Source of the DNA: a virus | Taxonomy: Duplodnaviria > Heunggongvirae > Uroviricota > Caudoviricetes | DNA: 19,841 nucleotides | Strand: one strand, 5' to 3' | Virus record (IMG/VR): IMGVR_UViG_2541047861_000012 | Span: 1 to 19,841 of that record | Shown here: positions 2,697-11,371 of the stretch, in pieces | How positions within the stretch are numbered: position 1 is the first letter of the stretch | Layout: each line of letters starts with the position of its first letter | Position numbers and translations under genes: made by a program | The notes under the pieces: generated by a model | Told to the model about the DNA's origin: nothing | The model's input: only the letters and a program-made list of their open reading frames with translations | The model's database searches: none

Positions 2697-3087
2697 CGTC
2701 TTTTCTCCCCGGAATTAACTCGCGTGGATTATCGGAAAGGTGATAGAGCCATATACCAATACGCACAGCGACAATTGCTGACACGAATGCGCCTGCAGAG
2801 AAAACAATCCCTTTTTCAAAAGAGTCCTGCGTGATGGTAGGGATCAGGCTAGCTATGCCGATAAGAATTGATGCTGCTGGTTTGTAAAAGAGAAGGCCGC
2901 AAAGAAAGCTGAGCATCGACAGGAGCACCCGGCGACGGATGGGGTACTCTACTGCAGAGGTAACAAAAATTACCGCCCCAGCCAAAGCCCCTAAAGCAAC
3001 CTCCGGAGGGACACCTGCAATAACCGCAGCAAGAGAACCAAAACTAAGCAACTGATTTAATTGCTCACTTGTTACTTGAGCAGACAT
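2683..3087 (-). CDS. holin (class I-like, 3-4 TM segments)
   Basis: 134 aa; AGGAG about 5 nt upstream of ATG 3087 on the minus strand; several TM helices and charged C-terminus [13 protein letters not shown]; first gene of the lysis cassette. Confidence 0.65.
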   Translation of the reverse strand: MSAQVTSEQLNQLLSFGSLAAVIAGVPPEVALGALAGAVIFVTSAVEYPIRRRVLLSMLSFLCGLLFYKPAASILIGIASLIPTITQDSFEKGIVFSAGAFVSAIVAVRIGIWLYHLSDNPRELIPGRKDDGNA

Positions 3088-3368
3088 ACTTTCTCCTGTT
3101 TACTATCTATAAGCCAGTCAATTATTGATGACTAAACCCGCATAGTAAACCATATATGAATCATTATTGTTCCATATCATATATCTCAATAAAAGTACTA
3201 ATTATTTTACAGAACGAGCCAGCAGAGTGGGGGCAGTTGTACAGGAACCATAGACTTAATTTTGTATTTAATAATGCTATGGTGTAATAAACCTGAACAT
3301 GTATTTAAAATACGTACTGATTCATGATAGAATTCAAAGATAACTTTTCACCAACTCCGTTTTTGATA

Positions 3369-3395
3369 CCCGCAAAATATTGCGGGCTTTTTTTT
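3369..3395 (+). terminator. rho-independent terminator oriented for plus-strand transcription
   Basis: 7-bp stem CCCGCAA (3369-3375) / TTGCGGG (3380-3386), loop AATA, then C plus T8 (3388-3395). The minus-strand RNA would have no U-tract after the hairpin (reads UAUCAAAAACGG). Confidence 0.5.
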
Positions 3396-6300
3396 AACGT
3401 TCTTCCAGAGACTGAATCCGCTCTTTTATCTTATCCATTTCTCTGCGCTGCCATGCTGCCTCGATATAGAATAAGAGATCAGGTCTGACCCCCCATCTAG
3501 ATCCTGCTGGCGTTATTTCAACGCGCTCAATGATGTCTTCCATTACCATCACTGGATTATCATCCTCATCAACAATGATGCTCCCGTCATTATCAGTCAG
3601 CTGTATTTCCCTTTGGCCAGTAATGACGTCATCATATACTGCGGGATAATCGTCATAGCAAAGAAAGGCATAGCGGCATGTTGTGCTTTCTTCTTCCATG
3701 AGTCCGTGAGAAATAAGAACATCACGAAGTTGCTGCGCGATTACACCATGATGTATCCTCGCCCCTTCTTCTCCCTTTATAGCGACAGCGTTCAGCCATT
3801 TATAAGCGATATACCTGACGTCACCCCAGGCATCCAGCAATGCTTCGTCAGGAGAGACCGGCTCTGTCTTTAATGTTCCGTCACTGGTAACCACAGGATT
3901 GGAGCCAAGATAAACTGTCGAGAACCTGTTTCCCGGACCACCAAGAGCATTTACATTATCAAGATAAGGTTTAACATCTCCGTTCTCAAAAAGATGTTCG
4001 AGTGCGTTATATACCGCGCGACGTGGAGTACTGCTTCCGGAACCATGCAACGTTATCATTGCACCATCTGCTGAAGACGTTGTTTCACCGCCGCTAACGA
4101 TTAATCTCTGAGCGGTAACATCATCAGACGGTACTTTCTTCGCAATAATGGCGTAATTGCCCTCCAGTTTGACTTCCGCGCGAACTTGTCCTGATGTACC
4201 TGCATGGACAGTCAGTGACTGGACGGCAACATCATCTGTGAAATCAACGGGTACAGGAACCGTCCTCACGCCGGACGTCGACATAAAAGTAGGAAGCGTT
4301 CTGTTAGGAGTGGCTCCGTAGACAAAATCCCTTGAAACAAATTCTTCCTGTTTAATTTTCACCCTGAAACAATACAAATCAGCCGGGTGACCATCGTGAA
4401 CATAAGGATATTTTCTGTTGTTATCCCCTATGCTCCATGGGTTTAGAAAGTCTTCCCCACCGAAAATGTAGTACAGCCAGTTGTCTTTGATACAAACTGA
4501 ACCAACACCAACCGCAGAGTTAACTATTCCGCCCTGATAAATCTGATCAGTAACATTAACCCACTCTACATTATCCAGACTCCACTCATTGACGTTAACT
4601 CTGGTCATAAATGTTCTTGGATAATTTCCTGCATAACGGTTATCAGGTTCTCCTCCTTCCCACTCACCAAATGCGCGCTCACTGCCAAAAATAATCAGCT
4701 CATCGCCAACTTTGGCAAAAGGAAGGTTTGAGTGATGAACATTATTTGGGAAGCGAAGAGAATTCCATGATGCACCTAAATCAGAGCTTCTGTGCAATGA
4801 ACTACCGGGTTGAGTACTTAATGTCCCCCTGGTCGTCAGATACAGAATGCCATCATAATATTTTACACATGGCTCAGATGCATTCGCCTCATATTCTGCA
4901 GGTATGCGTCTGCGAACAAAGCTACCAGGAGAACCGAAAGCATCAGAGAAATAGAGTATCCCAAGCTCGCGTGGACCAATATCACCATTATGGTAGCCAA
5001 CAGCAAAACTGTTATCGCTAATCGTCGCAAAACTGTGAATCTCAGTAACAGGAGTGCTTCCGTCAACAAAAGAAGAAATAGTTCCAAGACTGGTTTTTCT
5101 CCATGGTGACGAGTGAAATGATGTACCAAAACTCCAGTATCTACCCTCGTTATTCTGATCCACATCCTGAGTATTTTGCGTCGTAACTGTAAAAGTATTT
5201 TTATCAATAACAGTAGTCACCGTCATATTCCCGGTAACACCTGTAACACCAGAGTTTGAGAAGTTGACAAAATCACCAGCAAATAATCCGTGATCAGTAA
5301 TGCGAATATAAGCGACTTGCTGATTTGCTGCTTTCGTTATACCACCATAAACGCGAAGGCTGCGACTCATTGGACGATCCCACAACTCTGCAACCTGCAG
5401 TTTATTTCCGCGCACGGTCCGCGTCTCAATTACAGCAAAAAGGCGATTTCTGACAACCCCCATACTCATGCAGTGATAGTTAACTGTGGGATAGTTTTCA
5501 TGTAAATCTGTAAGCCATTCCGGCGTTGTCCAGGTCTTCCCGTCATCTCCTGAGCGAACCCATGCAACATGGAGGTTATTTACACCATGGCGGTCTCCAG
5601 CCATAAAAGGCGCATAGATGACATTGTCATATACAAACGTTTTATCCTGCGTCCAGGCGTTGTACCACGGTGTATCTGTAATTTTAAATAACTCTCCCTG
5701 GATAAAATCTTCAGAAGCATAAAAAAGAGGCTGACCCGGTATTCTCTCAAATAAAAAACGAGCATTTTTAAATCGGCTGACATCCGGAAGAGTTGATACT
5801 TTAAAAGTAAGCCCTAATCCGTCAATTTTATAACCTGGAGATGAGGCTTCAAGGCACGCGCTTATTGCAGTGGAATCGTCATTTATACCATCACCAACAG
5901 CTCCAAAATCTTTGGGGCTAATAGCATCACGCATTTTATCCTGGAACGTTCGGTATACTGCCCCAGAACCATACTGAATAAACCAACCAAAACCACCAAC
6001 AACCCCGGCGATTGCAGCATCGACATAATTACGCATTGAGCGATTATTTACAGCGTCCTGTTCAAGTGATGGATCTGCAAGGTTAGAAATTCTGTTTTGC
6101 TTTGCATCGTAATATTTTGCAAGCAAAGATGGTTTCATCAATGCACGTCTGAACCATCCAAAACATTGCTGGATCAGCATCGTCAGGTAGTCAAAGGCAT
6201 CTTCATGCACTTCGGGGAAAAACTTTCCCTGATTGCGAAGGTCTGTCTCCTGCACTACATCAAGCACACGATCTATCGTAATTCTCCATCCAGTAGCAAG

Positions 6301-6513
6301 CGGCGACGGAAGAACCACAGAACCGCCACTATAAGTGCCCGCCCCAGTTACCGTATAACCGGTATCCAGAACCAATTCTGTTACGTTCCCGTTCAGGTCA
6401 GACACCTGAACAACCAGGTCGGATTTTCTGAAAATTCGAAAAGTATACGGAAACGATGTCGTAACGCCGTTACCGGTGTATTCGTTGTGGTCAACTTCGG
6501 TTGAGACCGTCAT
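3394..6513 (-). CDS. tailspike/tail fibre with depolymerase domain (T7 gp17-like N-terminal anchor, Asp-box sialidase-like region, C-terminal S74 intramolecular-chaperone domain)
   Basis: GGAG 7 nt upstream of ATG 6513; residues about 10-115 resemble the T7 tail-fibre N-terminal particle-binding domain; pectate-lyase-like motif DFGAVGDGINDDSTAISA (201-219); Asp boxes SGDDGKTW (321-328) and SSDLGASW (576-583); predicted autocleavage site VVTS/DG (877/878) followed by a chaperone-like C-terminus. Substrate not determinable by eye. Confidence 0.85.
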   Translation of the reverse strand: MTVSTEVDHNEYTGNGVTTSFPYTFRIFRKSDLVVQVSDLNGNVTELVLDTGYTVTGAGTYSGGSVVLPSPLATGWRITIDRVLDVVQETDLRNQGKFFPEVHEDAFDYLTMLIQQCFGWFRRALMKPSLLAKYYDAKQNRISNLADPSLEQDAVNNRSMRNYVDAAIAGVVGGFGWFIQYGSGAVYRTFQDKMRDAISPKDFGAVGDGINDDSTAISACLEASSPGYKIDGLGLTFKVSTLPDVSRFKNARFLFERIPGQPLFYASEDFIQGELFKITDTPWYNAWTQDKTFVYDNVIYAPFMAGDRHGVNNLHVAWVRSGDDGKTWTTPEWLTDLHENYPTVNYHCMSMGVVRNRLFAVIETRTVRGNKLQVAELWDRPMSRSLRVYGGITKAANQQVAYIRITDHGLFAGDFVNFSNSGVTGVTGNMTVTTVIDKNTFTVTTQNTQDVDQNNEGRYWSFGTSFHSSPWRKTSLGTISSFVDGSTPVTEIHSFATISDNSFAVGYHNGDIGPRELGILYFSDAFGSPGSFVRRRIPAEYEANASEPCVKYYDGILYLTTRGTLSTQPGSSLHRSSDLGASWNSLRFPNNVHHSNLPFAKVGDELIIFGSERAFGEWEGGEPDNRYAGNYPRTFMTRVNVNEWSLDNVEWVNVTDQIYQGGIVNSAVGVGSVCIKDNWLYYIFGGEDFLNPWSIGDNNRKYPYVHDGHPADLYCFRVKIKQEEFVSRDFVYGATPNRTLPTFMSTSGVRTVPVPVDFTDDVAVQSLTVHAGTSGQVRAEVKLEGNYAIIAKKVPSDDVTAQRLIVSGGETTSSADGAMITLHGSGSSTPRRAVYNALEHLFENGDVKPYLDNVNALGGPGNRFSTVYLGSNPVVTSDGTLKTEPVSPDEALLDAWGDVRYIAYKWLNAVAIKGEEGARIHHGVIAQQLRDVLISHGLMEEESTTCRYAFLCYDDYPAVYDDVITGQREIQLTDNDGSIIVDEDDNPVMVMEDIIERVEITPAGSRWGVRPDLLFYIEAAWQRREMDKIKERIQSLEER

Positions 6514-6650: not shown

Positions 6651-6687
6651 TAGCAAACAAATTATTTGCTACTGTATAAATATACAG
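6651..6687. promoter_or_regulatory. operator-like tandem inverted repeats upstream of gene 6710-6967
   Basis: TAGCAAA-N7-TTTGCTA (6651-6671) immediately followed by CTGTATA-AA-TATACAG (6672-6687, contains TATAAAT), ending about 10 nt before the GGAG of gene 6710. Confidence 0.3.
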
Positions 6688-6709: not shown

Positions 6710-6967
6710 ATGCAGCAGTATCACTATCCACTGGAAGACGGATTTACCGAAAGGATTCACACGCCGGGAGGCGTCAGGTCACTGGTGGAGGGATCGCACT
6801 TGATGAAATTACTCCGGGATCTCGATAAGGATGGATTTAATGTCGATGGCCCACTTGCCGAACTGACTGCACTGATTAACTACGTCACCAGCTCACAGAT
6901 GTCTATGCAGGATCTGCAAACACATCTCGACTATTGTGCCGAACAATTACGAAAACAAACCAGATAA
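6710..6967 (+). CDS. small stand-alone homologue of the antirepressor C-terminal module
   Basis: GGAG at 6697-6700, 9 nt before ATG 6710 (the in-frame ATG at 6695 has no SD); 85 aa; SHLMKLLRDLDKDGFNVDGPLAELTALINYV...MQDLQTHLDY aligns with the shared C-terminus of 7283-7978 and 8987-9925 (SLLMNLLNQLQEDGHDVSGAAAELTTMFCYIV...LRDIQTHAEY). Confidence 0.55.
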   Translation: MQQYHYPLEDGFTERIHTPGGVRSLVEGSHLMKLLRDLDKDGFNVDGPLAELTALINYVTSSQMSMQDLQTHLDYCAEQLRKQTR

Positions 6968-7014: not shown

Positions 7015-7105
7015 TTTACATCGCACTCCTCTTGTGCCATAGTAATCGGGCACTGGCAAAATCCAGTGCCGGGATTGGCGTCCCGGATTACTAAAAGGCG
7101 CATTC

Positions 7106-7125
7106 ACCGCGCAAGCGGTTTTTTT
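7106..7125 (+). terminator. weak rho-independent terminator in the leader of the Bro-N antirepressor gene
   Basis: Short stem ACCGC (7106-7110) / GCGGT (7115-7119), loop GCAA, then a T-run to 7125; preceded by hairpins at 7049-7070 and 7069-7086 that share bases. Confidence 0.3.
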
Positions 7126-7282
7126 ATGCGTATAGCACGGCCACATTCGTATTATGGTGGGCTGTGTGGGGGCACCGAAAGGTGCGCCGGGTCCTTTTAG
7201 CCGGTTACGCCAACCCTGCACAGTTCACCACCAACCGATTGGCGTCGGTAGTGGTGATTAACCAGACTAAAAGGTAACCACT

Positions 7283-7978
7283 ATGACAGCTACAAAAAGC
7301 ACGTCCATTTTTTCTTTCGAATCCCAAGCCGATATACGGGTAATCGTCATTAATGGTGAGCCATGGTTTATCGCTTCAGATGTTTGTCGGGCTATAGGCA
7401 TAGCAAACCATCGAGATGCTGTTCGAAAACTTGATGATGATGAGAAGGGCGTCGCTTCAACCGACACCCCTGGCGGTGAGCAAGAATCGATCATCATCTC
7501 CGAGTCAGGCCTCTACACACTGATCCTCCGCTGCCGCGACGCAGTGACACCAGGCACTATCCCCTACCGCTTTCGTAAATGGGTTACAGGTGAGGTTCTT
7601 CCTCAGATCCGCCGCACCGGAAGTTACATTAAAAACTCGCTCCCGCAGGAAGAACGCATAAAGATGGTTGCCGACCAGGTAGCCAACGCCACAGCATCAG
7701 CAGTGATGCAGGCAATGAAGATAGAGAACAAAACCTACAGTGCCCCGCTGAAGCCCGGCTACCGCAGTTTGATTCACTCGCCGTCTGGTGTTCTCGGCCT
7801 GACGGAGAACTCACTGCTGATGAATTTGCTGAACCAGTTACAGGAAGACGGGCATGACGTATCGGGCGCGGCGGCGGAACTGACCACCATGTTCTGCTAC
7901 ATCGTCGGTGTGAGTAAATGCCTGCGTGATATCCAGACTCACGCGGAGTACATCAACGACAAAGCAGGATTCTTCTGA
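7283..7978 (+). CDS. antirepressor-like protein (Bro-N N-terminal domain plus shared antirepressor C-terminal module)
   Basis: AAGG about 8 nt upstream of ATG 7283; Bro-N signature FESQADIRVIVINGEPWFIASDVCRAIG...ESGLYTLILRCRDAVTPGTIPYRFRKWVTGEVLPQIRRTG; last 77 residues identical to those of 8987-9925. Confidence 0.8.
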   Translation: MTATKSTSIFSFESQADIRVIVINGEPWFIASDVCRAIGIANHRDAVRKLDDDEKGVASTDTPGGEQESIIISESGLYTLILRCRDAVTPGTIPYRFRKWVTGEVLPQIRRTGSYIKNSLPQEERIKMVADQVANATASAVMQAMKIENKTYSAPLKPGYRSLIHSPSGVLGLTENSLLMNLLNQLQEDGHDVSGAAAELTTMFCYIVGVSKCLRDIQTHAEYINDKAGFF

Positions 7979-8000
7979 CGGGCGGCGGCACAGGGATGTG
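7745..8000. repeat. inverted repeat copy A (3' end of gene 7283-7978 plus about 22 bp)
   Basis: Reverse complement matches 8964-9220 at about 93% identity (16 mismatches in the 231 coding nt plus one indel in the 3' flank). Similarity begins exactly at the first codon of the shared 77-aa module. Confidence 0.85.
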
Positions 8001-8150
8001 CCTTTAAATAATTCTGTACAGATTGCAGACTGGGGGTGAATAGCGTACTATTACCTCACGGGTGATCCATAGCGATTAGGCACCGATACAGGAGGAGCCC
8101 ACATGAGAAAATTTGACGAGTACGAAGGCGTTTAACATTCGGATAGTTCA

Positions 8151-8167
8151 TTTACCCTAATGGTAAA
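8151..8167. promoter_or_regulatory. operator-like palindrome TTTACC-N5-GGTAAA (copy 2), about 40 bp upstream of gene 8207-8842
   Basis: TTTACC (8151-8156), CTAAT, GGTAAA (8162-8167); TA-rich -10-like sequence TATATATTAT at 8187-8196; GAGG SD at 8197-8200. Confidence 0.35.
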
Positions 8168-8206
8168 TCCCGCTTAAAGAAGCATCTATATATTATGAGG
8201 TGATGT

Positions 8207-8842
8207 ATGCCACAACAACTGCTGAATCCGGCAAAGGTAACTGAGGTTTTCGCTCATCTGAACGAAACTCCAGACAACCGCGCCCTGTATTCAGAGTTAG
8301 TGAACGGCAACGATGTCACATCTGATGTCAAAGGCGTTTCTCTGGCTCCTGGATACCGCGTTGTCCGTGTAGACGATCGTAAGAAAGGCGAGATTCCACA
8401 GGCGCACTTTGAACTGTCATTGATAAATGACCTCACCGAAGAGGTAGTGTATTACAATCGTGTCATTATCCAGCCTGACAGCTATCTTAACTGCCGTCCT
8501 GTCACGCAGATATTGGTATGGAGAACCCAGAAGCCTAAGCATCGTGCTGTGCTTCATGATTTCGCTGGCATCATCTTCATGAACTACCTCTTGGAACGGT
8601 ACGATATCATCGTGTCTGATCGCAACCAGACTCATGAAGGCATGTCGTTCTGGCAGGCTCGCATGTATGACGCACTGGAACTTGGCCTCCATCTCTATGG
8701 TTACGACATGATGACATGCGAACTTATAGAGATGAATAACGAGGAAGAACTTGAGAAAGGTGAAACCTGGTTGTGGGGTGATGCGGAAAACTTCCAAAAC
8801 AGATTGGCCATAATTTCAAAGCATAAGCTGCCAATAAAATAG
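8207..8842 (+). CDS. hypothetical protein, 211 aa, no recognisable domain (orphan moron between the two antirepressor genes)
   Basis: ATG 8207 with GAGG SD 6 nt upstream; uninterrupted 211-codon ORF; no TM segment or signal peptide; own strong terminator at 8851-8871; lies inside the segment bracketed by the 256-bp inverted repeat. Confidence 0.7.
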   Translation: MPQQLLNPAKVTEVFAHLNETPDNRALYSELVNGNDVTSDVKGVSLAPGYRVVRVDDRKKGEIPQAHFELSLINDLTEEVVYYNRVIIQPDSYLNCRPVTQILVWRTQKPKHRAVLHDFAGIIFMNYLLERYDIIVSDRNQTHEGMSFWQARMYDALELGLHLYGYDMMTCELIEMNNEEELEKGETWLWGDAENFQNRLAIISKHKLPIK

Positions 8843-8850
8843 TTCTTTAA

Positions 8851-8871
8851 GCCCGCGCCGCGGGCTTTTTT
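8851..8871 (+). terminator. rho-independent terminator of gene 8207-8842
   Basis: GC-rich hairpin GCCCGCG...CGCGGGC (8851-8865) followed by T6 (8866-8871). Confidence 0.7.
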
Positions 8872-8910
8872 GTGTCTGCGGATTCCCGCCCGGGCGGCGG
8901 TGGCATTCGT

Positions 8911-8935
8911 TAAAAACAAGGCCGCGAAAGCGGCC
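8911..8935 (-). terminator. rho-independent terminator of the arc-ant operon
   Basis: Stem GGCCGC (8920-8925) / GCGGCC (8930-8935) with GAAA loop; on the minus strand the hairpin is followed by UUGUUUUUA (plus 8911-8919). A further palindrome CCGCCCGGGCGG (8886-8897) lies between the two convergent terminators. Confidence 0.6.
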
Positions 8936-8963
8936 TGTGACATGTCACGCTAGTTTCGTTTTG

Positions 8964-9220
8964 CACGTCCCTGTGCCGCCGTTCTGTCAGAAGAACCCTG
9001 CCTTGTCGTTGATGTATTCCGCGTGCGTCTGGATATCACGCAGGCATTTGCTCACACCAACGATGTAGCAGAACATGGTGGTCAGCTCCGCCGCCGCGCC
9101 CGATACATCGTGCCCGTCTTCCTGTAACTGGTTCAGCAGATTCATCAGCAGTGAGTTCTCCGTCAGGCCGAGAACACCCGACGGCGAATGAATCAGACTG
9201 CGGTAGCCTGGCTTCAATGG
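8964..9220. repeat. inverted repeat copy B (3' end of gene 8987-9925 plus about 23 bp)
   Basis: Partner of 7745-8000; see copy A. Confidence 0.85.
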
Positions 9221-9925
9221 ATAACCATAACATTTTGTCTGTGTTTTAATTGCCTCACGAAGCGCATCTAACATCTTGACTGCCACTTCATCATTCTCTG
9301 ATGCAGATCCAGCAGGGAGATACTCCCCTTCAAGCGGAACCCGAGCAACAAGAGACAACGCTTCGGCAAATTGATCTTCACCAATTTCTTTGTACGAACA
9401 GCCAAAATGAGATTTCAGTGACGACCACATGGTGATCATCGCCTTAGCCTGTTTTTCTTTTGGCAGAGACTGACCGCGACTCATGACGAGTTGTTTAATG
9501 GCTTCCTGCTGTTCAGTTGTTATTTTACCCGGCAACGCCTTTTTAGCTTTGCGTGGGTTAACCACATGGCCTTTAGTCCAGTACTCGTAGAGCACATCGT
9601 CACACTCTTCCTGATACTGGATTACCTTGTCGCGGATTTCAGGGCGGACTTTGTTAGGGCTGATGCTGTTCAACCAAGCTGCCAATTTTCGTAAAGCCAT
9701 ACAAATCATGGCTTGCACCCCACCGGCAGAAGGTATGGTGATTTCCACCATACCCTTCGAGAAGCGTTGAGAAATCTTCTTATGTTGAGATTTCCAGTCT
9801 AGCCCCATTCCCTCAACGATAGGTTTCATTGGGGTATACGGTTCGCCGTTGTGATTGACAACATAAAGCTCTGCGCCGTGGAATGGCACGTTGATAGTAG
9901 ATACTGCTGTTGCTATACTCGTCAT
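8987..9925 (-). CDS. ant: antirepressor (Ant-like; AntA/P22-Ant-type N-terminal domain plus shared C-terminal module)
   Basis: 312 aa; follows the arc-like gene on the same strand after a 72-bp spacer; N-terminal region INVPFHGAELYVVNHNGEPYTPMKPIVEGMGLDWKSQHKKI resembles phage antirepressor N-terminal domains; C-terminal 77 aa identical to 7283-7978. The symbol is given by position and domain analogy to P22 ant. Confidence 0.8.
   Translation of the reverse strand: MTSIATAVSTINVPFHGAELYVVNHNGEPYTPMKPIVEGMGLDWKSQHKKISQRFSKGMVEITIPSAGGVQAMICMALRKLAAWLNSISPNKVRPEIRDKVIQYQEECDDVLYEYWTKGHVVNPRKAKKALPGKITTEQQEAIKQLVMSRGQSLPKEKQAKAMITMWSSLKSHFGCSYKEIGEDQFAEALSLVARVPLEGEYLPAGSASENDEVAVKMLDALREAIKTQTKCYGYPLKPGYRSLIHSPSGVLGLTENSLLMNLLNQLQEDGHDVSGAAAELTTMFCYIVGVSKCLRDIQTHAEYINDKAGFF
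9891..9919 (+). promoter_or_regulatory. candidate sigma70 promoter for an antisense (sar-like) RNA
   Basis: -35 TTGATA (9891-9896), 17-bp spacer, -10 TATACT (9914-9919); predicted start near 9926, i.e. opposite the ant start codon (9923-9925). Confidence 0.4.
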
Positions 9926-9999
9926 GTCGTTAATTCCTATACGTAGTTTTACGATACTGAAGCCCTGACGGTCTGGCCACCGTGGGGCTTCGCTGTTTT
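9926..9999 (+). ncRNA. predicted sar-like antisense RNA covering the arc-ant intercistronic region and ant ribosome-binding site
   Basis: Transcript predicted from promoter 9891-9919; ends at stem GAAGCCC (9959-9965) / GGGCTTC (9985-9991) with inner stem ACGG/CCGT, followed by GCUGUUUUA (9992-10000). About 70 nt, same size and topology as P22 sar RNA. Confidence 0.35.
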
Positions 10000-10165
10000 A
10001 TGCCACGCTATTCTTCTCACCAGTGAGTCCATACACTTTCCTCAGCTGATAGATAATCTCTGTATTGAACTTTCGGCATTCTTTTTCGCCATTTCTTTCA
10101 ATAGCTAACTTCACATCGTCCGGAAAACGAACTCGTCGTTGACACATCTCTTTTGCTTTTTGCAT
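9998..10165 (-). CDS. arc: Arc-like ribbon-helix-helix repressor
   Basis: AAGGAG SD 7 nt upstream of ATG 10165 (the longer ORF from 10186 lacks an SD); 55 aa MQKAKEMCQRRVRFPDDVKLAIERNGEKECRKFNTEIIYQLRKVY... matches the Arc/MetJ RHH pattern (compare P22 Arc RWPREV...NGRSVNSEIYQRV); first gene of an arc-ant operon. Confidence 0.8.
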   Translation of the reverse strand: MQKAKEMCQRRVRFPDDVKLAIERNGEKECRKFNTEIIYQLRKVYGLTGEKNSVA

Positions 10166-10179
10166 TTCATATCTCCTTA

Positions 10180-10248
10180 GCCCCACCGTGGGGCAAAATA
10201 ATTGTCACACCGTGCGTCATTGATGTCAAGCACACGGTGAGGCATACT
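10180..10248. promoter_or_regulatory. immI-type control region: overlapping divergent promoters with repeated CACCGTG/CACGGTG operator heptads
   Basis: Near-palindrome GCCCCACCGTGGGGC (10180-10194); CACCGTG at 10208-10214; CACGGTG at 10233-10239; a fourth copy GCCACCGTGGGGC at 9976-9988. Minus-strand promoter: -35 TTGACA (complement of 10224-10229), -10 GACAAT (complement of 10201-10206). Plus-strand promoter: -35 TTGATG (10220-10225), -10 CATACT (10243-10248). The heptad core matches the CCACGGTGG core I recall for the P22 Mnt operator. Confidence 0.55.
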
Positions 10249-10285
10249 TCAATCATTGCAAGTAACTCAATATTTGGTGAAGAAC

Positions 10286-10717
10286 ATGAGCAGAGAAGAT
10301 CCACAACTAAGGATCAGACTTCCCGTCGAAGTAAAAGAAAAAATAGAAATTTCTGCAAAAGCCAATAAGCGATCAATGAACGCTGAAATAGTACAACGTC
10401 TTGACACCAGCTTTCTGAAAGATATTCATGAAGATGACGTAATTTCTGCTTATGAAGCAAAAATCATTGCAAACAATGCACGACATGAAATATCAAATAT
10501 TATTTTCAAAAGAACCTTTAATGAAATTAATAAGAAAATAACACTTGGACATACAAGTTTTTATATAAACCTTAATGACCTTGAACTGGAATCACTTGCA
10601 GATAATGATTACCAGATCATCTTTGAAAAAACATTTAATAGGCTCAATGAACTAGGTTACATCATCTGTGAAAACTCATGGGATGCAGATGGTTTTGGAA
10701 TTGAAATACCTGAATAG
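10286..10717 (+). CDS. mnt: Mnt-like ribbon-helix-helix repressor with a novel C-terminal extension (chimeric)
   Basis: ATG 10286 preceded by GGTGA (the ORF track begins at TTG 10256); N-terminus MSREDPQLRIRLPVEVKEKIEISAKANKRSMNAEIVQRL closely parallels P22 Mnt (ARDDPHFNFRMPMEVREKLKFRAEANGRSMNSELLQIV); 143 aa versus 83 aa for Mnt; the extra acidic C-terminal part lies in the AT-rich block. Confidence 0.75.
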   Translation: MSREDPQLRIRLPVEVKEKIEISAKANKRSMNAEIVQRLDTSFLKDIHEDDVISAYEAKIIANNARHEISNIIFKRTFNEINKKITLGHTSFYINLNDLELESLADNDYQIIFEKTFNRLNELGYIICENSWDADGFGIEIPE

Positions 10718-10807
10718 GAAGAACAAAAGGCGTGTACATATTACACGTCTTTAATACAATTGAAAAACGCCACATTACTGATGTATGTTACAACAAGGAG
10801 CGATATT

Positions 10808-11371
10808 TTGAAAACCATATCTATATTAAAGGTTGCATTAGGCGTCGCTATTATTTTGACTCTCTCAATATTGTTTTATTTTTACCACAAACAAACTGCT
10901 ATTGCTCTTGATAGTCACGCGGCAAACTCATTTTTCTCAGAGTACATAGTGCCGCTATCAGGAAGCGGTATAACAAATAAATATACTGACTATGACATCA
11001 AATATGGAATTGATGATGGGGAGACTATTGTATTACATGTAATCATTAAAAACCTAATGACAGTAAATAAAAATACAGACTTCAACGATAAAAATACAAT
11101 ACATCACAACAACAGCAAAACATTAATTTCTTATAGTAGCAACATCTATACGGATAAATACCTAAAATACATATCAGAAGATACAATAAAAGAAACCCGC
11201 GAAAAGTTAAAAAACATATATTGTGCATCCGGCAGTTTTCACAAATTATCGCCGCAAGAGCGTTTATTCTACGAAGCAAGAAAACAACGTAAGTCAATAA
11301 TATTACATTATTATGCTGATTCAGGGGAGACACTCATATTTAATATTGGGGTTTCCCCTGAATCATGCTAA
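10808..11371 (+). CDS. single-pass membrane protein of unknown function in the sieA position (candidate superinfection-exclusion/defence moron)
   Basis: AAGGAG (10795-10800) 7 nt before in-frame TTG 10808; alternative in-frame starts at ATG 10781 and TTG 10760 (ORF track). N-terminal TM helix ISILKVALGVAIILTLSILFYFY then an Asn/Lys/Tyr-rich soluble domain; very low G+C; stop 11 bp from the stop of the convergent 1004-aa gene. Confidence 0.65.
   Translation: MKTISILKVALGVAIILTLSILFYFYHKQTAIALDSHAANSFFSEYIVPLSGSGITNKYTDYDIKYGIDDGETIVLHVIIKNLMTVNKNTDFNDKNTIHHNNSKTLISYSSNIYTDKYLKYISEDTIKETREKLKNIYCASGSFHKLSPQERLFYEARKQRKSIILHYYADSGETLIFNIGVSPESC

What the first reader, a model, noticed from the sequence alone, without database searches (positions are those of the whole stretch)
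7745..9220. Two antirepressor genes share a 77-codon C-terminal module with 16 synonymous and 0 non-synonymous differences
Aligning codons 155-231 of gene 7283-7978 with codons 236-312 of gene 8987-9925 gives 16 nucleotide differences (for example ccg/cca, ctg/ttg, cac/cat, tct/tcg), and every one is synonymous. The N-terminal domains are unrelated (Bro-N versus AntA/P22-Ant-like), and similarity starts abruptly at the first codon of the module. This indicates strong purifying selection on the module and domain shuffling at a sharp junction. The two copies form inverted repeats about 960 bp apart.
Basis: seen in the sequence. Interest (0 to 1): 0.62.

Follow-up and report, generated by a model that had tools for sequence, protein, structure and literature searches.

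The report
Shared repressor-binding module on two antirepressors
Two convergent prophage genes end in the same 77-residue domain, a relative of the structurally solved phage SPC32H antirepressor, and this protein sequence is almost invariant across E. coli prophages although the DNA varies; it is a tidy case of known phage biology, not a new kind of system.

Summary
Codons 155-231 of gene 7283-7978 (+) and codons 236-312 of gene 8987-9925 (-) differ at 16 nucleotides, all synonymous (dS 0.37, dN 0; P about 1e-10 under neutrality). The module is neither KilA-C/ANT nor P22_AR_C, and no Pfam model hits it. It is homologous to the 86-aa antirepressor Ant of Salmonella phage SPC32H (PDB 5D50, E 1.5e-13), which binds the epsilon15-type repressor Rep. 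The locus therefore has three control circuits feeding one effector fold: LexA controls the stand-alone Ant, an IsrK/C4 RNA leader precedes Bro-N::Ant, and mnt-arc-sar (P22 immI type) precedes P22_AR_N::Ant. In the last gene the module replaces P22_AR_C. In 109 related copies I found 92 DNA haplotypes but only 6 protein sequences, with no differentiation between the two positions. The same module is fused to Bro-N, AntA, ORF6N or P22_AR_N. The Bro-N::Ant protein is identical to phage ZX5 ORF4, which reduces lysogeny when overexpressed. No inversion isomers occur for this architecture. Verdict: real, largely explained, a new variant of a known kind.

The parts
6672..6687 (.). LexA box CTGTATAAATATACAG (within TACTGTATAAATATACAGTT), overlapping the promoter of the stand-alone ant gene
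   Evidence: The only perfect CTGT-N8-ACAG match in the window; sequence read. The equivalent SPC32H ant is LexA-controlled (own knowledge of Kim & Ryu 2013; summarised in PMC7380047).
6710..6967 (+). Stand-alone antirepressor Ant (85 aa), orthologue of SPC32H Ant and third copy of the module fold
   Evidence: PDB 5D50_E, E 4.4e-47; 88% identical to SPC32H ant by tblastn; 42% identical to the fused module; phrog_450. GGAG ribosome-binding site 8 nt upstream of ATG 6710.
7050..7125 (+). IsrK-like small RNA / leader with intrinsic terminator (7106-7119); overlaps the c4-a1b1 target match at 7037-7089
   Evidence: Rfam RF01394, 77.9 bits (gathering score 50); RF03163, 45.1 bits; terminator scan.
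7150..7235 (+). C4-type antisense RNA (P1/P7 immI type) in the leader of the Bro-N::Ant gene
   Evidence: Rfam RF01695, 77.7 bits (gathering score 45). The same isrK + C4 pair precedes every Bro-N/AntA/ORF6N::module gene checked in other loci.
7283..7978 (+). Bro-N::Ant antirepressor gene (231 aa): Bro-N domain at aa 17-107 (7331-7603), linker helix at about aa 131-154, Ant module at aa 155-231
   Evidence: Pfam Bro-N, 2.3e-21. Product is 231/231 identical to vB_EcoP_ZX5 ORF4 anti-repressor, whose overexpression lowered lysogeny (PMC9782041).
7745..7978 (+). Module copy 1 (77 codons plus stop); the DNA repeat arm extends from 7710 to about 8001
   Evidence: PDB 5D50_E, E 1.5e-13; AF2 model matches 5D50_G/H.
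8207..8842 (+). Cargo gene (211 aa, phrog_1349, function unknown) in the variable slot between the two module arms, followed by terminator 8849-8867
   Evidence: Other genomes carry different cargo here, such as YafO toxin and DUF4760.
8919..8936 (-). Intrinsic terminator of the arc-ant operon
8987..9220 (-). Module copy 2 (77 codons plus stop); the repeat arm extends from about 8964 to 9255
8987..9925 (-). P22_AR_N::Ant antirepressor gene (312 aa). Residues 1 to about 203 are P22/CUS-3-type Ant (P22_AR_N at aa 12-121, nt 9563-9892). From about aa 205 an epsilon15-type linker and Ant module replace P22_AR_C.
   Evidence: Pfam. BLASTP against CUS-3 Ant loses similarity at about aa 203. CUS-3 Ant has P22_AR_C at 207-279. 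The megablast match to CUS-3 ends at window 9322.
9927..9994 (+). sar antisense RNA (P22 immI), antisense to the arc-ant intercistronic region
   Evidence: Rfam RF00262, 44.8 bits (gathering score 43).
9998..10186 (-). arc-like small repressor gene, preceded by a Pant-like promoter at 10229-10201
   Evidence: phrog_228 Arc-like repressor; annotated as Arc-like repressor in TL-2011b; promoter scan TTGACA-17-GACAAT.
10256..10717 (+). mnt-like repressor (153 aa, Arc/ribbon-helix-helix domain at aa 12-56), divergent from arc-ant
   Evidence: Pfam Arc, 1.2e-14.

Best explanation
The window is part of an epsilon15/phiV10-like (Uetakevirus) prophage of a K1 E. coli. The 77-residue module is a fused version of the small antirepressor Ant solved from Salmonella phage SPC32H, which assembles as a tetramer and pulls the phage repressor Rep apart. 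I infer that the module is the repressor-binding effector domain and that the N-terminal domains (Bro-N, P22_AR_N) are exchangeable accessory parts. The prophage carries three effectors of this fold under three inputs. A stand-alone Ant sits behind a LexA box (SOS input). Bro-N::Ant sits behind an IsrK/C4 RNA leader (P1/Gifsy-type RNA switch). P22_AR_N::Ant sits in a P22-type immI cassette (mnt, arc, sar), whose original P22_AR_C domain was replaced by the local module, retargeting that cassette to the epsilon15-type Rep. The protein sequence is held nearly fixed by purifying selection, matching an equally invariant Rep. Synonymous variants circulate in a single recombining allele pool shared by both gene positions and by all N-domain types. 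The 16 silent differences in this genome are therefore two draws from that pool, not divergence since a local duplication. Shown here: homology, architecture, regulatory elements, population pattern, and identity to an experimentally tested antirepressor. Inferred: direct binding of the fused module to Rep, tetramer formation, and the roles of the N-terminal domains.
For: Module identity: the module matches PDB 5D50_E 'Anti-repressor protein' at E 1.5e-13 over 72 residues. The AF2 model's best PDB matches are 5D50_G/H, probability 1.00, TM 0.64-0.71. It also matches phrog_450.
Stand-alone copy: it matches 5D50_E at E 4e-47 and has a perfect LexA box upstream.
Cognate repressor: relatives carry a Rep homologue; TL-2011b gp10 matches 5D50_A at E 3e-41.
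Mechanism in the literature: the SPC32H Ant tetramer binds two Rep dimers (PMC9638917).
Experimental support: gene 7283-7978 is 100% identical to ZX5 ORF4. Its overexpression cut lysogens from 1e9 to 1e6 and repressor mRNA by 75%.
Regulatory RNAs: Rfam finds isrK, C4 and sar above their gathering scores. The IsrK locus is known to control an antirepressor-like gene (PMC4825925).
Domain replacement: CUS-3 Ant shares aa 1 to about 203 and then carries P22_AR_C, which is absent here.
Population pattern: 109 copies give 92 haplotypes and 6 protein sequences; of 54 segregating sites, 49 lie in codons with only synonymous variation and 5 in codons with amino-acid variation; piS 0.147, piN 0.0016. 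Alleles chosen for high DNA divergence still have only 0-2 aa changes.
One allele pool: within-locus prox-dist distance is 9.2 nt, against 8.8, 9.0 and 9.5 for the other comparisons. Rmin is 16 in 231 nt.
Rep shows the same pattern: 59 haplotypes and 5 proteins.
Co-variation: module identity across phages tracks Rep identity, 78/78 for Tyrion and 55/45 for Kp4865.
N-domain diversity: Bro-N A-D, AntA, ORF6N and P22_AR_N all carry the same module.
Against: No binding data exist for the fused module. The ZX5 experiment used the whole protein under strong overexpression, so it does not assign the activity to the C-terminal domain. The stand-alone Ant is 88% identical to SPC32H Ant although Rep is only 42% identical, so Ant and Rep sequences are not simply coupled, and it is unclear which of the paralogues is the cognate partner of the E. 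coli-type Rep. The Rep gene itself is not inside this window. The IMG/VR samples were the best 80 by protein identity, which lowers piN (mitigated). phiV10 and two typing phages carry a frameshifted Bro-N::Ant gene, so that copy is dispensable. The AF2 model has only moderate confidence (pLDDT 74.8).
Confidence: 0.7

Rival explanations
1. Division of labour by target. The fused module and the stand-alone Ant recognise different repressors: the stand-alone Ant (SPC32H type) acts on Salmonella-type Rep of heteroimmune relatives, or has lost its partner, while the fused module is the true partner of the E. coli-type Rep. The three copies would then mediate cross-talk between prophages rather than redundancy.
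For: The module and the stand-alone Ant are only 42% identical. The stand-alone Ant stays 88% identical between phages whose Reps are 42% identical, whereas the fused module tracks Rep. The stand-alone Ant shows a more relaxed piN/piS of 0.24, against 0.011 for the module. Trans-acting antirepressor cross-talk is documented in Salmonella (PMC3121763, listed; summarised in PMC7380047).
Against: The stand-alone gene and its perfect LexA box are retained in essentially every locus. phiV10-type phages with a broken fused gene keep only the stand-alone copy. Chimeras between the two types exist (P0022 and the Cronobacter proteins), which suggests interchangeable parts. The co-variation argument rests on only 3-4 phages.
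Confidence: 0.3
2. Identity is maintained by selection for co-assembly. Because Ant works as a tetramer, the two fused paralogues must keep identical interfaces to form mixed tetramers that bring together different N-terminal domains. Selection would then be for compatibility between paralogues rather than, or in addition to, Rep binding.
For: SPC32H Ant is tetrameric (PMC9638917). The two copies are 100% identical in protein in about half of the 26 two-copy loci and differ by one residue in the rest.
Against: The same invariance is seen in the many prophages that carry only one fused copy: 51 of 77 loci with a copy next to the stand-alone ant, and a median of one place per genome. Compatibility between paralogues therefore cannot be the main constraint. 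The three genes have different regulatory circuits, which argues against obligatory co-expression.
Confidence: 0.12
3. The inverted module copies are the arms of a functional invertible segment that flips the cargo gene (8207-8842) to switch its expression.
For: The arms are 231-270 nt inverted repeats with identical runs of up to 39 nt. One related locus (L017) carries the inter-arm region inverted relative to all others.
Against: No invertase or recombinase is present in the window. Cargo orientation relative to the stand-alone ant is the same in 76 of 77 loci, including every locus with the P22_AR_N distal gene. The L017/L019 inversion spans both whole genes and uses the outer inverted isrK-C4 leaders, not the module arms. 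The cargo has its own terminator and also occurs downstream of single-copy loci (L032, L047, L051).
Confidence: 0.04
4. Chance, very recent duplication or gene conversion, or an assembly artefact accounts for the absence of amino-acid differences.
For: Gene conversion or recombination between copies does occur (mosaic alleles; Rmin 16).
Against: Sixteen silent differences and no replacements have P about 1e-10 under neutrality. dS of 0.37 is not recent. The pattern repeats across 92 haplotypes. The architecture recurs in independent complete genomes.
Confidence: 0.01

Closest known systems
SPC32H Ant, the LexA-controlled antirepressor of epsilon15-like Salmonella phages (PDB 5D50; Kim & Ryu 2013; Kim et al. 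2016)
   Same: The module and the stand-alone copy are sequence homologues (E 1.5e-13 and 4e-47). The predicted fold matches chains G/H. The genomic position is the same, between the tailspike and virion genes. A Rep homologue is present in relatives, and the stand-alone copy has a LexA box.
   Different: In SPC32H, Ant is a free 86-aa protein present once. Here the fold is also the C-terminal domain of two larger proteins with Bro-N or P22_AR_N heads, under RNA-based (IsrK/C4) or Mnt/Arc/sar control rather than LexA. The fused clade is only about 40% identical to SPC32H Ant, and the E. coli Rep is only 42% identical to SPC32H Rep.
P22 immI region (mnt-arc-sar-ant) and P22/CUS-3 Ant (P22_AR_N + P22_AR_C)
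   Same: The gene order mnt / arc-ant, the sar antisense RNA, the Pant-like promoter and the first 200 or so residues of Ant (89-96% identical to CUS-3 Ant) are all shared.
   Different: The P22_AR_C domain is absent and is replaced by the epsilon15-type linker and Ant module. The host phage is an epsilon15-like podovirus whose repressor is unrelated to P22 C2. The mnt-like gene encodes 153 aa rather than about 83.
P1/P7 immI (c4 RNA-icd-ant) and the Gifsy-1 isrK-orf45-anrP locus
   Same: An IsrK-like RNA with a terminator, followed by a C4-type antisense RNA, lies in the leader of an antirepressor gene with a Bro-N-type head. In Gifsy-1 this arrangement gates translation of the antirepressor-like AnrP (PMC4825925).
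   Different: The C-terminal effector domain is the SPC32H-type module, not KilA-C/ANT. The RNA mechanism has not been tested here.
Domain-shuffled Bro-N / KilA-N / AntA / ORF6N phage regulators (Iyer, Koonin & Aravind 2002; own knowledge)
   Same: Modular proteins in which interchangeable N-terminal domains are joined to variable C-terminal domains by recombination.
   Different: Here the constant part is the C-terminal domain. It has a solved, functionally defined stand-alone homologue, which assigns the antirepressor activity to that part of the protein.

Membership tests
SPC32H-type Ant (PDB 5D50 chains E-H; phrog_450) | Significant sequence homology to SPC32H Ant across the whole domain | tested here: met
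   Module E 1.5e-13, residues 1-72 against chain residues 8-79. Stand-alone copy E 4.4e-47. phrog_450 E 4e-36 and 1.6e-35.
SPC32H-type Ant (PDB 5D50 chains E-H; phrog_450) | Same helical fold | tested here: met
   AF2 model pLDDT 74.8. The Foldseek top hits are 5d50_G/H, probability 1.00, TM (target-normalised) 0.64-0.71. The model has moderate confidence and is a monomer only.
SPC32H-type Ant (PDB 5D50 chains E-H; phrog_450) | Encoded by an epsilon15-like phage that has a Rep-type repressor | tested here: met
   The closest phages are Uetakevirus. TL-2011b gp10 matches 5D50_A at E 3e-41. Rep lies outside this window, so this was tested on relatives with the same locus.
SPC32H-type Ant (PDB 5D50 chains E-H; phrog_450) | Tetramer that binds Rep and releases it from DNA | not testable with these tools
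   The only indirect support is that the identical protein, ZX5 ORF4, lowers lysogeny when overexpressed.
SPC32H-type Ant (PDB 5D50 chains E-H; phrog_450) | LexA-repressed promoter | tested here: inconclusive
   Met for the stand-alone copy (LexA box 6672-6687). Not met for the two fused genes, which have IsrK/C4 and Mnt/Arc/sar contexts.
P22 Ant (P22_AR_N + P22_AR_C in immI) | P22_AR_N domain | tested here: met
   PF10547, E 5.9e-45, aa 12-121 of gene 8987-9925.
P22 Ant (P22_AR_N + P22_AR_C in immI) | P22_AR_C domain | tested here: not met
   No PF10548 hit at E<0.1. CUS-3 Ant has it at 207-279, and similarity to CUS-3 ends at about aa 203.
P22 Ant (P22_AR_N + P22_AR_C in immI) | immI context: mnt, arc, sar RNA | tested here: met
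   Arc-domain protein at 10256-10717. The small arc-like ORF at 9998-10186 matches phrog_228 Arc-like repressor and is annotated Arc-like repressor in TL-2011b. sar RF00262 at 9927-9994.
P1-type / KilAC antirepressors (Bro-N or KilA-N head + ANT PF03374 tail, c4 RNA control) | Bro-N head and C4 antisense RNA leader | tested here: met
   PF02498, E 2.3e-21. RF01695, 77.7 bits.
P1-type / KilAC antirepressors (Bro-N or KilA-N head + ANT PF03374 tail, c4 RNA control) | ANT/KilA-C C-terminal domain | tested here: not met
   No PF03374 hit at E<0.1 in either protein.
Programmed invertible DNA segments (Hin/Gin/shufflon type) | Site-specific invertase next to short inverted sites, with both orientations present in populations | tested here: not met
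   No recombinase in the window. Orientation is constant in 76 of 77 loci. The single inverted locus uses long homologous outer repeats.

The most novel reading that the evidence does not exclude
The locus may be a recombination-driven antirepressor shuffling site. A fixed Rep-binding and tetramerising module, present in convergent copies, would act as a portable homology anchor. It would let prophages swap N-terminal sensor heads, their RNA switches (two C4 variants) and the cargo gene lying between the arms. Co-expressed paralogues with identical modules could then form mixed tetramers that integrate the SOS, RNA-switch and superinfection (Mnt/Arc) signals into one induction decision.
Probability: 0.15. 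Interest if true: 0.6.

Novelty: new variant of a known kind. Interest (0 to 1): 0.42.

Why it matters
Many phage proteins are labelled 'antirepressor' only because they carry a Bro-N, KilA-N, AntA, ORF6N or P22_AR_N head, and for most of them it is unknown which part touches the repressor. Here the constant C-terminal part is homologous to a stand-alone antirepressor with a solved complex structure, and the heads are freely exchanged. This points to the tail as the effector and the heads as accessory parts, and the idea is directly testable with the ZX5 system. The locus also shows how a P22-type immunity cassette can be retargeted to an unrelated repressor by swapping one domain. It further shows that a single prophage can wire three classic control circuits (LexA, C4/IsrK RNA, Mnt/Arc/sar) to the same effector fold. 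The module occurs in about 9% of complete E. coli genomes, is not covered by Pfam or NCBIfam, and is listed as 'unknown function' in PHROGs, so an annotation gap could be closed.

Tried and rejected
- Pfam, NCBIfam and PADLOC gave no model for the module, and NCBIfam and PADLOC gave nothing useful for the fused proteins or the 211-aa cargo.
- I first suspected that the 81% coverage of the best E. coli hits reflected an inverted middle segment. It is simply a different cargo in the same orientation.
- The word-indexed protein search returned only 36 proteins, mostly fragments.
- The primary SPC32H papers (J Virol 2013, PNAS 2016) are not held. Interface residues therefore could not be mapped, and the mechanism is cited from secondary sources and from memory.
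- Two literature calls failed because a search term was too short.
- Simple inversion between the module arms was rejected as the explanation for L017, because the N-terminal heads and C4 variants also change sides.
- Nucleotide-level constraint from an overlapping ORF or RNA was rejected, because the variable sites are exactly the synonymous ones.
Full report
**1. Check of the observation**

Gene 7283-7978 (+, 231 aa) and gene 8987-9925 (-, 312 aa) end in the same 77 residues, PLKPGYRSLIHSPSGV...INDKAGFF. A codon-by-codon comparison from the stop codons gives 16 nucleotide differences in codons 155-231 versus 236-312. Thirteen are at third positions and three are CTG/TTG first positions; every one is synonymous.

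Nei-Gojobori counts are S=54.7, N=176.3, pS=0.293, dS=0.37 and dN=0. The chance that 16 random substitutions are all silent is about 1e-10. The repeat finder reports inverted arms 7710-7979 and 8986-9255 (270 nt, 89%) with 1006 nt between them.

Three refinements apply.
- DNA similarity continues about 23 nt beyond both stop codons (GGCGGCACAGGGAYGTGC).
- The 24 codons upstream of the 'sharp' start still share 9 of 24 residues.
- The second N-terminal domain is P22_AR_N, not AntA.

An assembly artefact is excluded. The arms differ at 16 sites, and the same layout recurs in phage TL-2011b, several complete E. coli chromosomes and many IMG/VR contigs.

**2. What the module is**

Pfam recognises only Bro-N (aa 17-107) in the first protein and P22_AR_N (aa 12-121) in the second. 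Nothing hits the shared tail, neither ANT/KilA-C nor P22_AR_C.

A search of PDB sequences identifies the tail as a homologue of chain E of 5D50, the 'Anti-repressor protein' of Salmonella phage SPC32H (E 1.5e-13, about 40% identity over 72 residues). An AlphaFold model of linker plus module (pLDDT 74.8) has 5D50 chains G/H as its only confident PDB matches (probability 1.00, TM 0.64-0.71). PHROGs places the tail in phrog_450, labelled 'unknown function'.

[quoted passage not shown] 2016, which is not held).

**3. A third copy and the context**

It matches SPC32H Ant at E 4e-47, is 88% identical to it, and is 42% identical to the fused module. It is preceded by the only perfect CTGT-N8-ACAG LexA box in the window (6672-6687, within TACTGTATAAATATACAGTT). 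This matches the LexA-controlled ant of SPC32H.

The surrounding genes are those of an epsilon15/phiV10-like (Uetakevirus) prophage: virion genes, a K1 endosialidase tailspike at 3394-6513 and a lysis cassette. The closest phage, TL-2011b, has the same three Ant-fold genes. phiV10 has the stand-alone gene plus a frameshifted Bro-N::module gene and no third gene. SPC32H and epsilon15 have only the stand-alone gene.

**4. Three control circuits**

Rfam finds the following, above or close to the gathering scores.
- An IsrK-like RNA at 7050-7125, containing the terminator 7106-7119.
- A C4-type antisense RNA at 7150-7235, immediately upstream of the Bro-N::Ant gene.
- A sar RNA at 9927-9994, between arc (9998-10186) and the P22_AR_N::Ant gene.

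An Arc-domain, mnt-like gene (10256-10717) is divergent from a Pant-like promoter. The IsrK arrangement is known to gate translation of an antirepressor-like gene in Gifsy-1 (PMC4825925).

In other loci every Bro-N, AntA or ORF6N::module gene checked has its own isrK + C4 leader, including both genes where two are present. So one effector fold receives three inputs: LexA (SOS), a P1/Gifsy-type RNA switch and a P22-type immI circuit.

**5. Where the real chimera joint is**

The distal protein is 89-96% identical to the Ant of the P22-like phage CUS-3 through about residue 203, and then similarity stops. CUS-3 Ant carries P22_AR_C at residues 207-279. The window protein instead carries a linker helix and the epsilon15-type module.

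The nucleotide match to CUS-3 ends at window 9322. What begins at Pro155/Pro236 is the invariant part of a longer (about 100 aa) homologous unit.

Three linker types exist (Bro type, AntA/ORF6N type, P22_AR_N type). All end exactly before PLKPGY, and they tolerate amino-acid changes. That point corresponds to residue 8 of the free SPC32H Ant.

**6. Population pattern**

I took 79 IMG/VR loci (the best 80 of 304 hits, so biased towards identical proteins) together with the window and the other loci fetched earlier from the phage, E. coli and genome collections. These gave 109 full-length module copies:
- 92 distinct DNA haplotypes but only 6 protein sequences;
- 54 segregating sites, of which 49 are in codons with synonymous variation only;
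- piS 0.147, piN 0.0016, ratio 0.011.

Neighbouring segments have piS near 0.03.

Two checks are free of that bias. All E. coli phages in GenBank have 97-100% identical modules, while Enterobacter (78%) and Klebsiella (55%) relatives diverge. Three E. coli alleles chosen for high DNA divergence (13-18 differences) have only 0-2 residue changes.

The two positions are not differentiated. Mean differences are 9.2 nt within a locus, 8.8 between proximal copies, 9.0 between distal copies and 9.5 between positions across loci. Of 595 site pairs, 241 fail the four-gamete test, giving Rmin=16 in 231 nt. Alleles are visibly mosaic between the window and TL-2011b.

The window's 16 differences are the largest of the 26 pairs, but they are simply two draws from one recombining pool. 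Rep from the same phage group shows the same signature: 80 copies, 59 haplotypes, 5 proteins, piN/piS 0.02. That is what one expects of an interacting pair with fixed specificity.

**7. Shuffled heads and cargo**

The invariant module is joined to four Bro-N subtypes, AntA (PF08346), ORF6N (PF10543) and P22_AR_N, in many proximal/distal combinations. Stand-alone proteins of about 95 aa, consisting of linker plus module, exist in Klebsiella and Raoultella. Chimeras between the stand-alone type and the fused type also exist.

The segment between the arms is a variable cargo slot. Here it holds a 211-aa phrog_1349 protein. Elsewhere it holds a YafO-family toxin gene next to a small ORF, DUF4760, DUF2335 or small ORFs. 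The same cargo is also found downstream of single-copy loci.

**8. Inversion**

Cargo orientation relative to the stand-alone ant is constant in 76 of 77 loci. The exception is L017, which is inverted relative to L019, L028 and L058. However, the inversion includes both whole genes and their C4 variants, and its ends lie in the inverted isrK-C4 leaders, not in the module arms.

No invertase is present in the window. For the window's own architecture (Bro-N proximal, P22_AR_N distal) no isomer was seen.

**9. Function**

The window's Bro-N::Ant protein is 231/231 identical to ORF4 of phage vB_EcoP_ZX5. When ORF4 was overexpressed, lysogens fell from 1e9 to 1e6 PFU/mL equivalents and repressor transcripts fell by 75%. 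ZX5's repressor is the phiV10 type, 42% identical to that of epsilon15 (PMC9782041). TL-2011b's Rep matches 5D50_A at E 3e-41.

Across phages, identities to TL-2011b are as follows.

| Phage | Rep | Fused module | Stand-alone Ant |
|---|---|---|---|
| Tyrion | 78% | 78% | 86% |
| Kp4865-1 | 45% | 55% | 58% |
| SPC32H | 42% | absent | 88% |

The fused module follows Rep identity. The stand-alone Ant is 88% identical between phages whose Reps are 42% identical. The sample is small, but it hints that the fused module is matched to the E. coli-type Rep. Whether the stand-alone copy binds the same Rep remains open.

**10. Verdict**

It reflects strong purifying selection on a repressor-binding effector domain that is homologous to a solved antirepressor. 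That domain has been recombined onto several heads and into a P22-type immI cassette.

All the ingredients are known kinds: antirepressors, mosaic phage genomes, domain shuffling and the LexA, C4 and sar controls. What is new is the recognition of the fused form of the SPC32H-type Ant, the replacement of P22_AR_C by it, and the convergence of three circuits on one fold. I rate it a new variant of a known kind, with moderate interest (0.42). The most useful consequence is a testable assignment of the antirepressor activity to the C-terminal module.

Noticed in passing
window 6710-6967 and 6672-6687: A stand-alone SPC32H-type ant gene with a perfect LexA box lies just upstream of the finding.
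   Followed up: yes
window 7037-7235: An IsrK-like sRNA and a C4-type antisense RNA (both above the Rfam gathering scores) lie in the leader of the Bro-N::Ant gene. Related loci carry two sequence variants of C4 (78.6 and 66 bits), possibly with different antisense specificities.
   Followed up: partly
window 8207-8842: A 211-aa protein of phrog_1349 with no Pfam, NCBIfam or PADLOC match sits in a hypervariable cargo slot. In other genomes the slot holds a YafO-family toxin gene next to a small ORF, DUF4760, DUF2335 or small ORFs. It may be a defence or moron hotspot.
   Followed up: partly
window 10760-11371: A 203-aa ORF (phrog_8033, unknown function) has a weak TIR-like ThsB match in PADLOC (E 0.006). 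It occupies the position next to mnt where P22 carries sieA.
   Followed up: no
window 10256-10717: The mnt-like repressor is 153 aa long: an Arc/ribbon-helix-helix domain at residues 12-56 plus a C-terminal extension of about 95 aa that has no family match.
   Followed up: no
window 3394-6513: A K1-specific endosialidase tailspike (End_beta_propel and related domains, plus the Peptidase_S74 chaperone) is carried by an epsilon15-like prophage. Its N-terminal adaptor differs from that of the P22-like K1 phage CUS-3.
   Followed up: no
L017 5254-8508 versus L019 5232-8293: The whole cassette [isrK-C4-Bro::module - cargo - module::Bro-C4-isrK] is inverted between two related prophages, through the roughly 270-nt inverted leaders.
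   Followed up: yes
L002 (phiV10) 3780-4459: In phiV10 and in O157 typing phages 9 and 10, the Bro-N::module gene is broken within the module region (annotated as a 194-aa and a 29-aa ORF). The fused copy is therefore dispensable for a viable phage.
   Followed up: partly
L001 (TL-2011b) 2989-4077: In TL-2011b, an extra segment of about 1.1 kb, annotated 'similar to hypothetical protein', lies between the stand-alone ant and the Bro-N::Ant gene.
   Followed up: no
proteins P0022 and P0027-P0032 (alignment A1): Natural chimeras exist between the stand-alone-type and fused-type Ant sequences: the N-terminal half resembles one type and the core or C-terminal half resembles the other (Cronobacter and an unnamed contig). 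This suggests that sub-domain parts are interchangeable.
   Followed up: no
window 7979-8001 and 8964-8986: A conserved hairpin (GGCACA-GGGA-TGTGCC) lies just 3' of both module copies, inside the repeated DNA. Recombinant 3' flanks occur among related loci.
   Followed up: no
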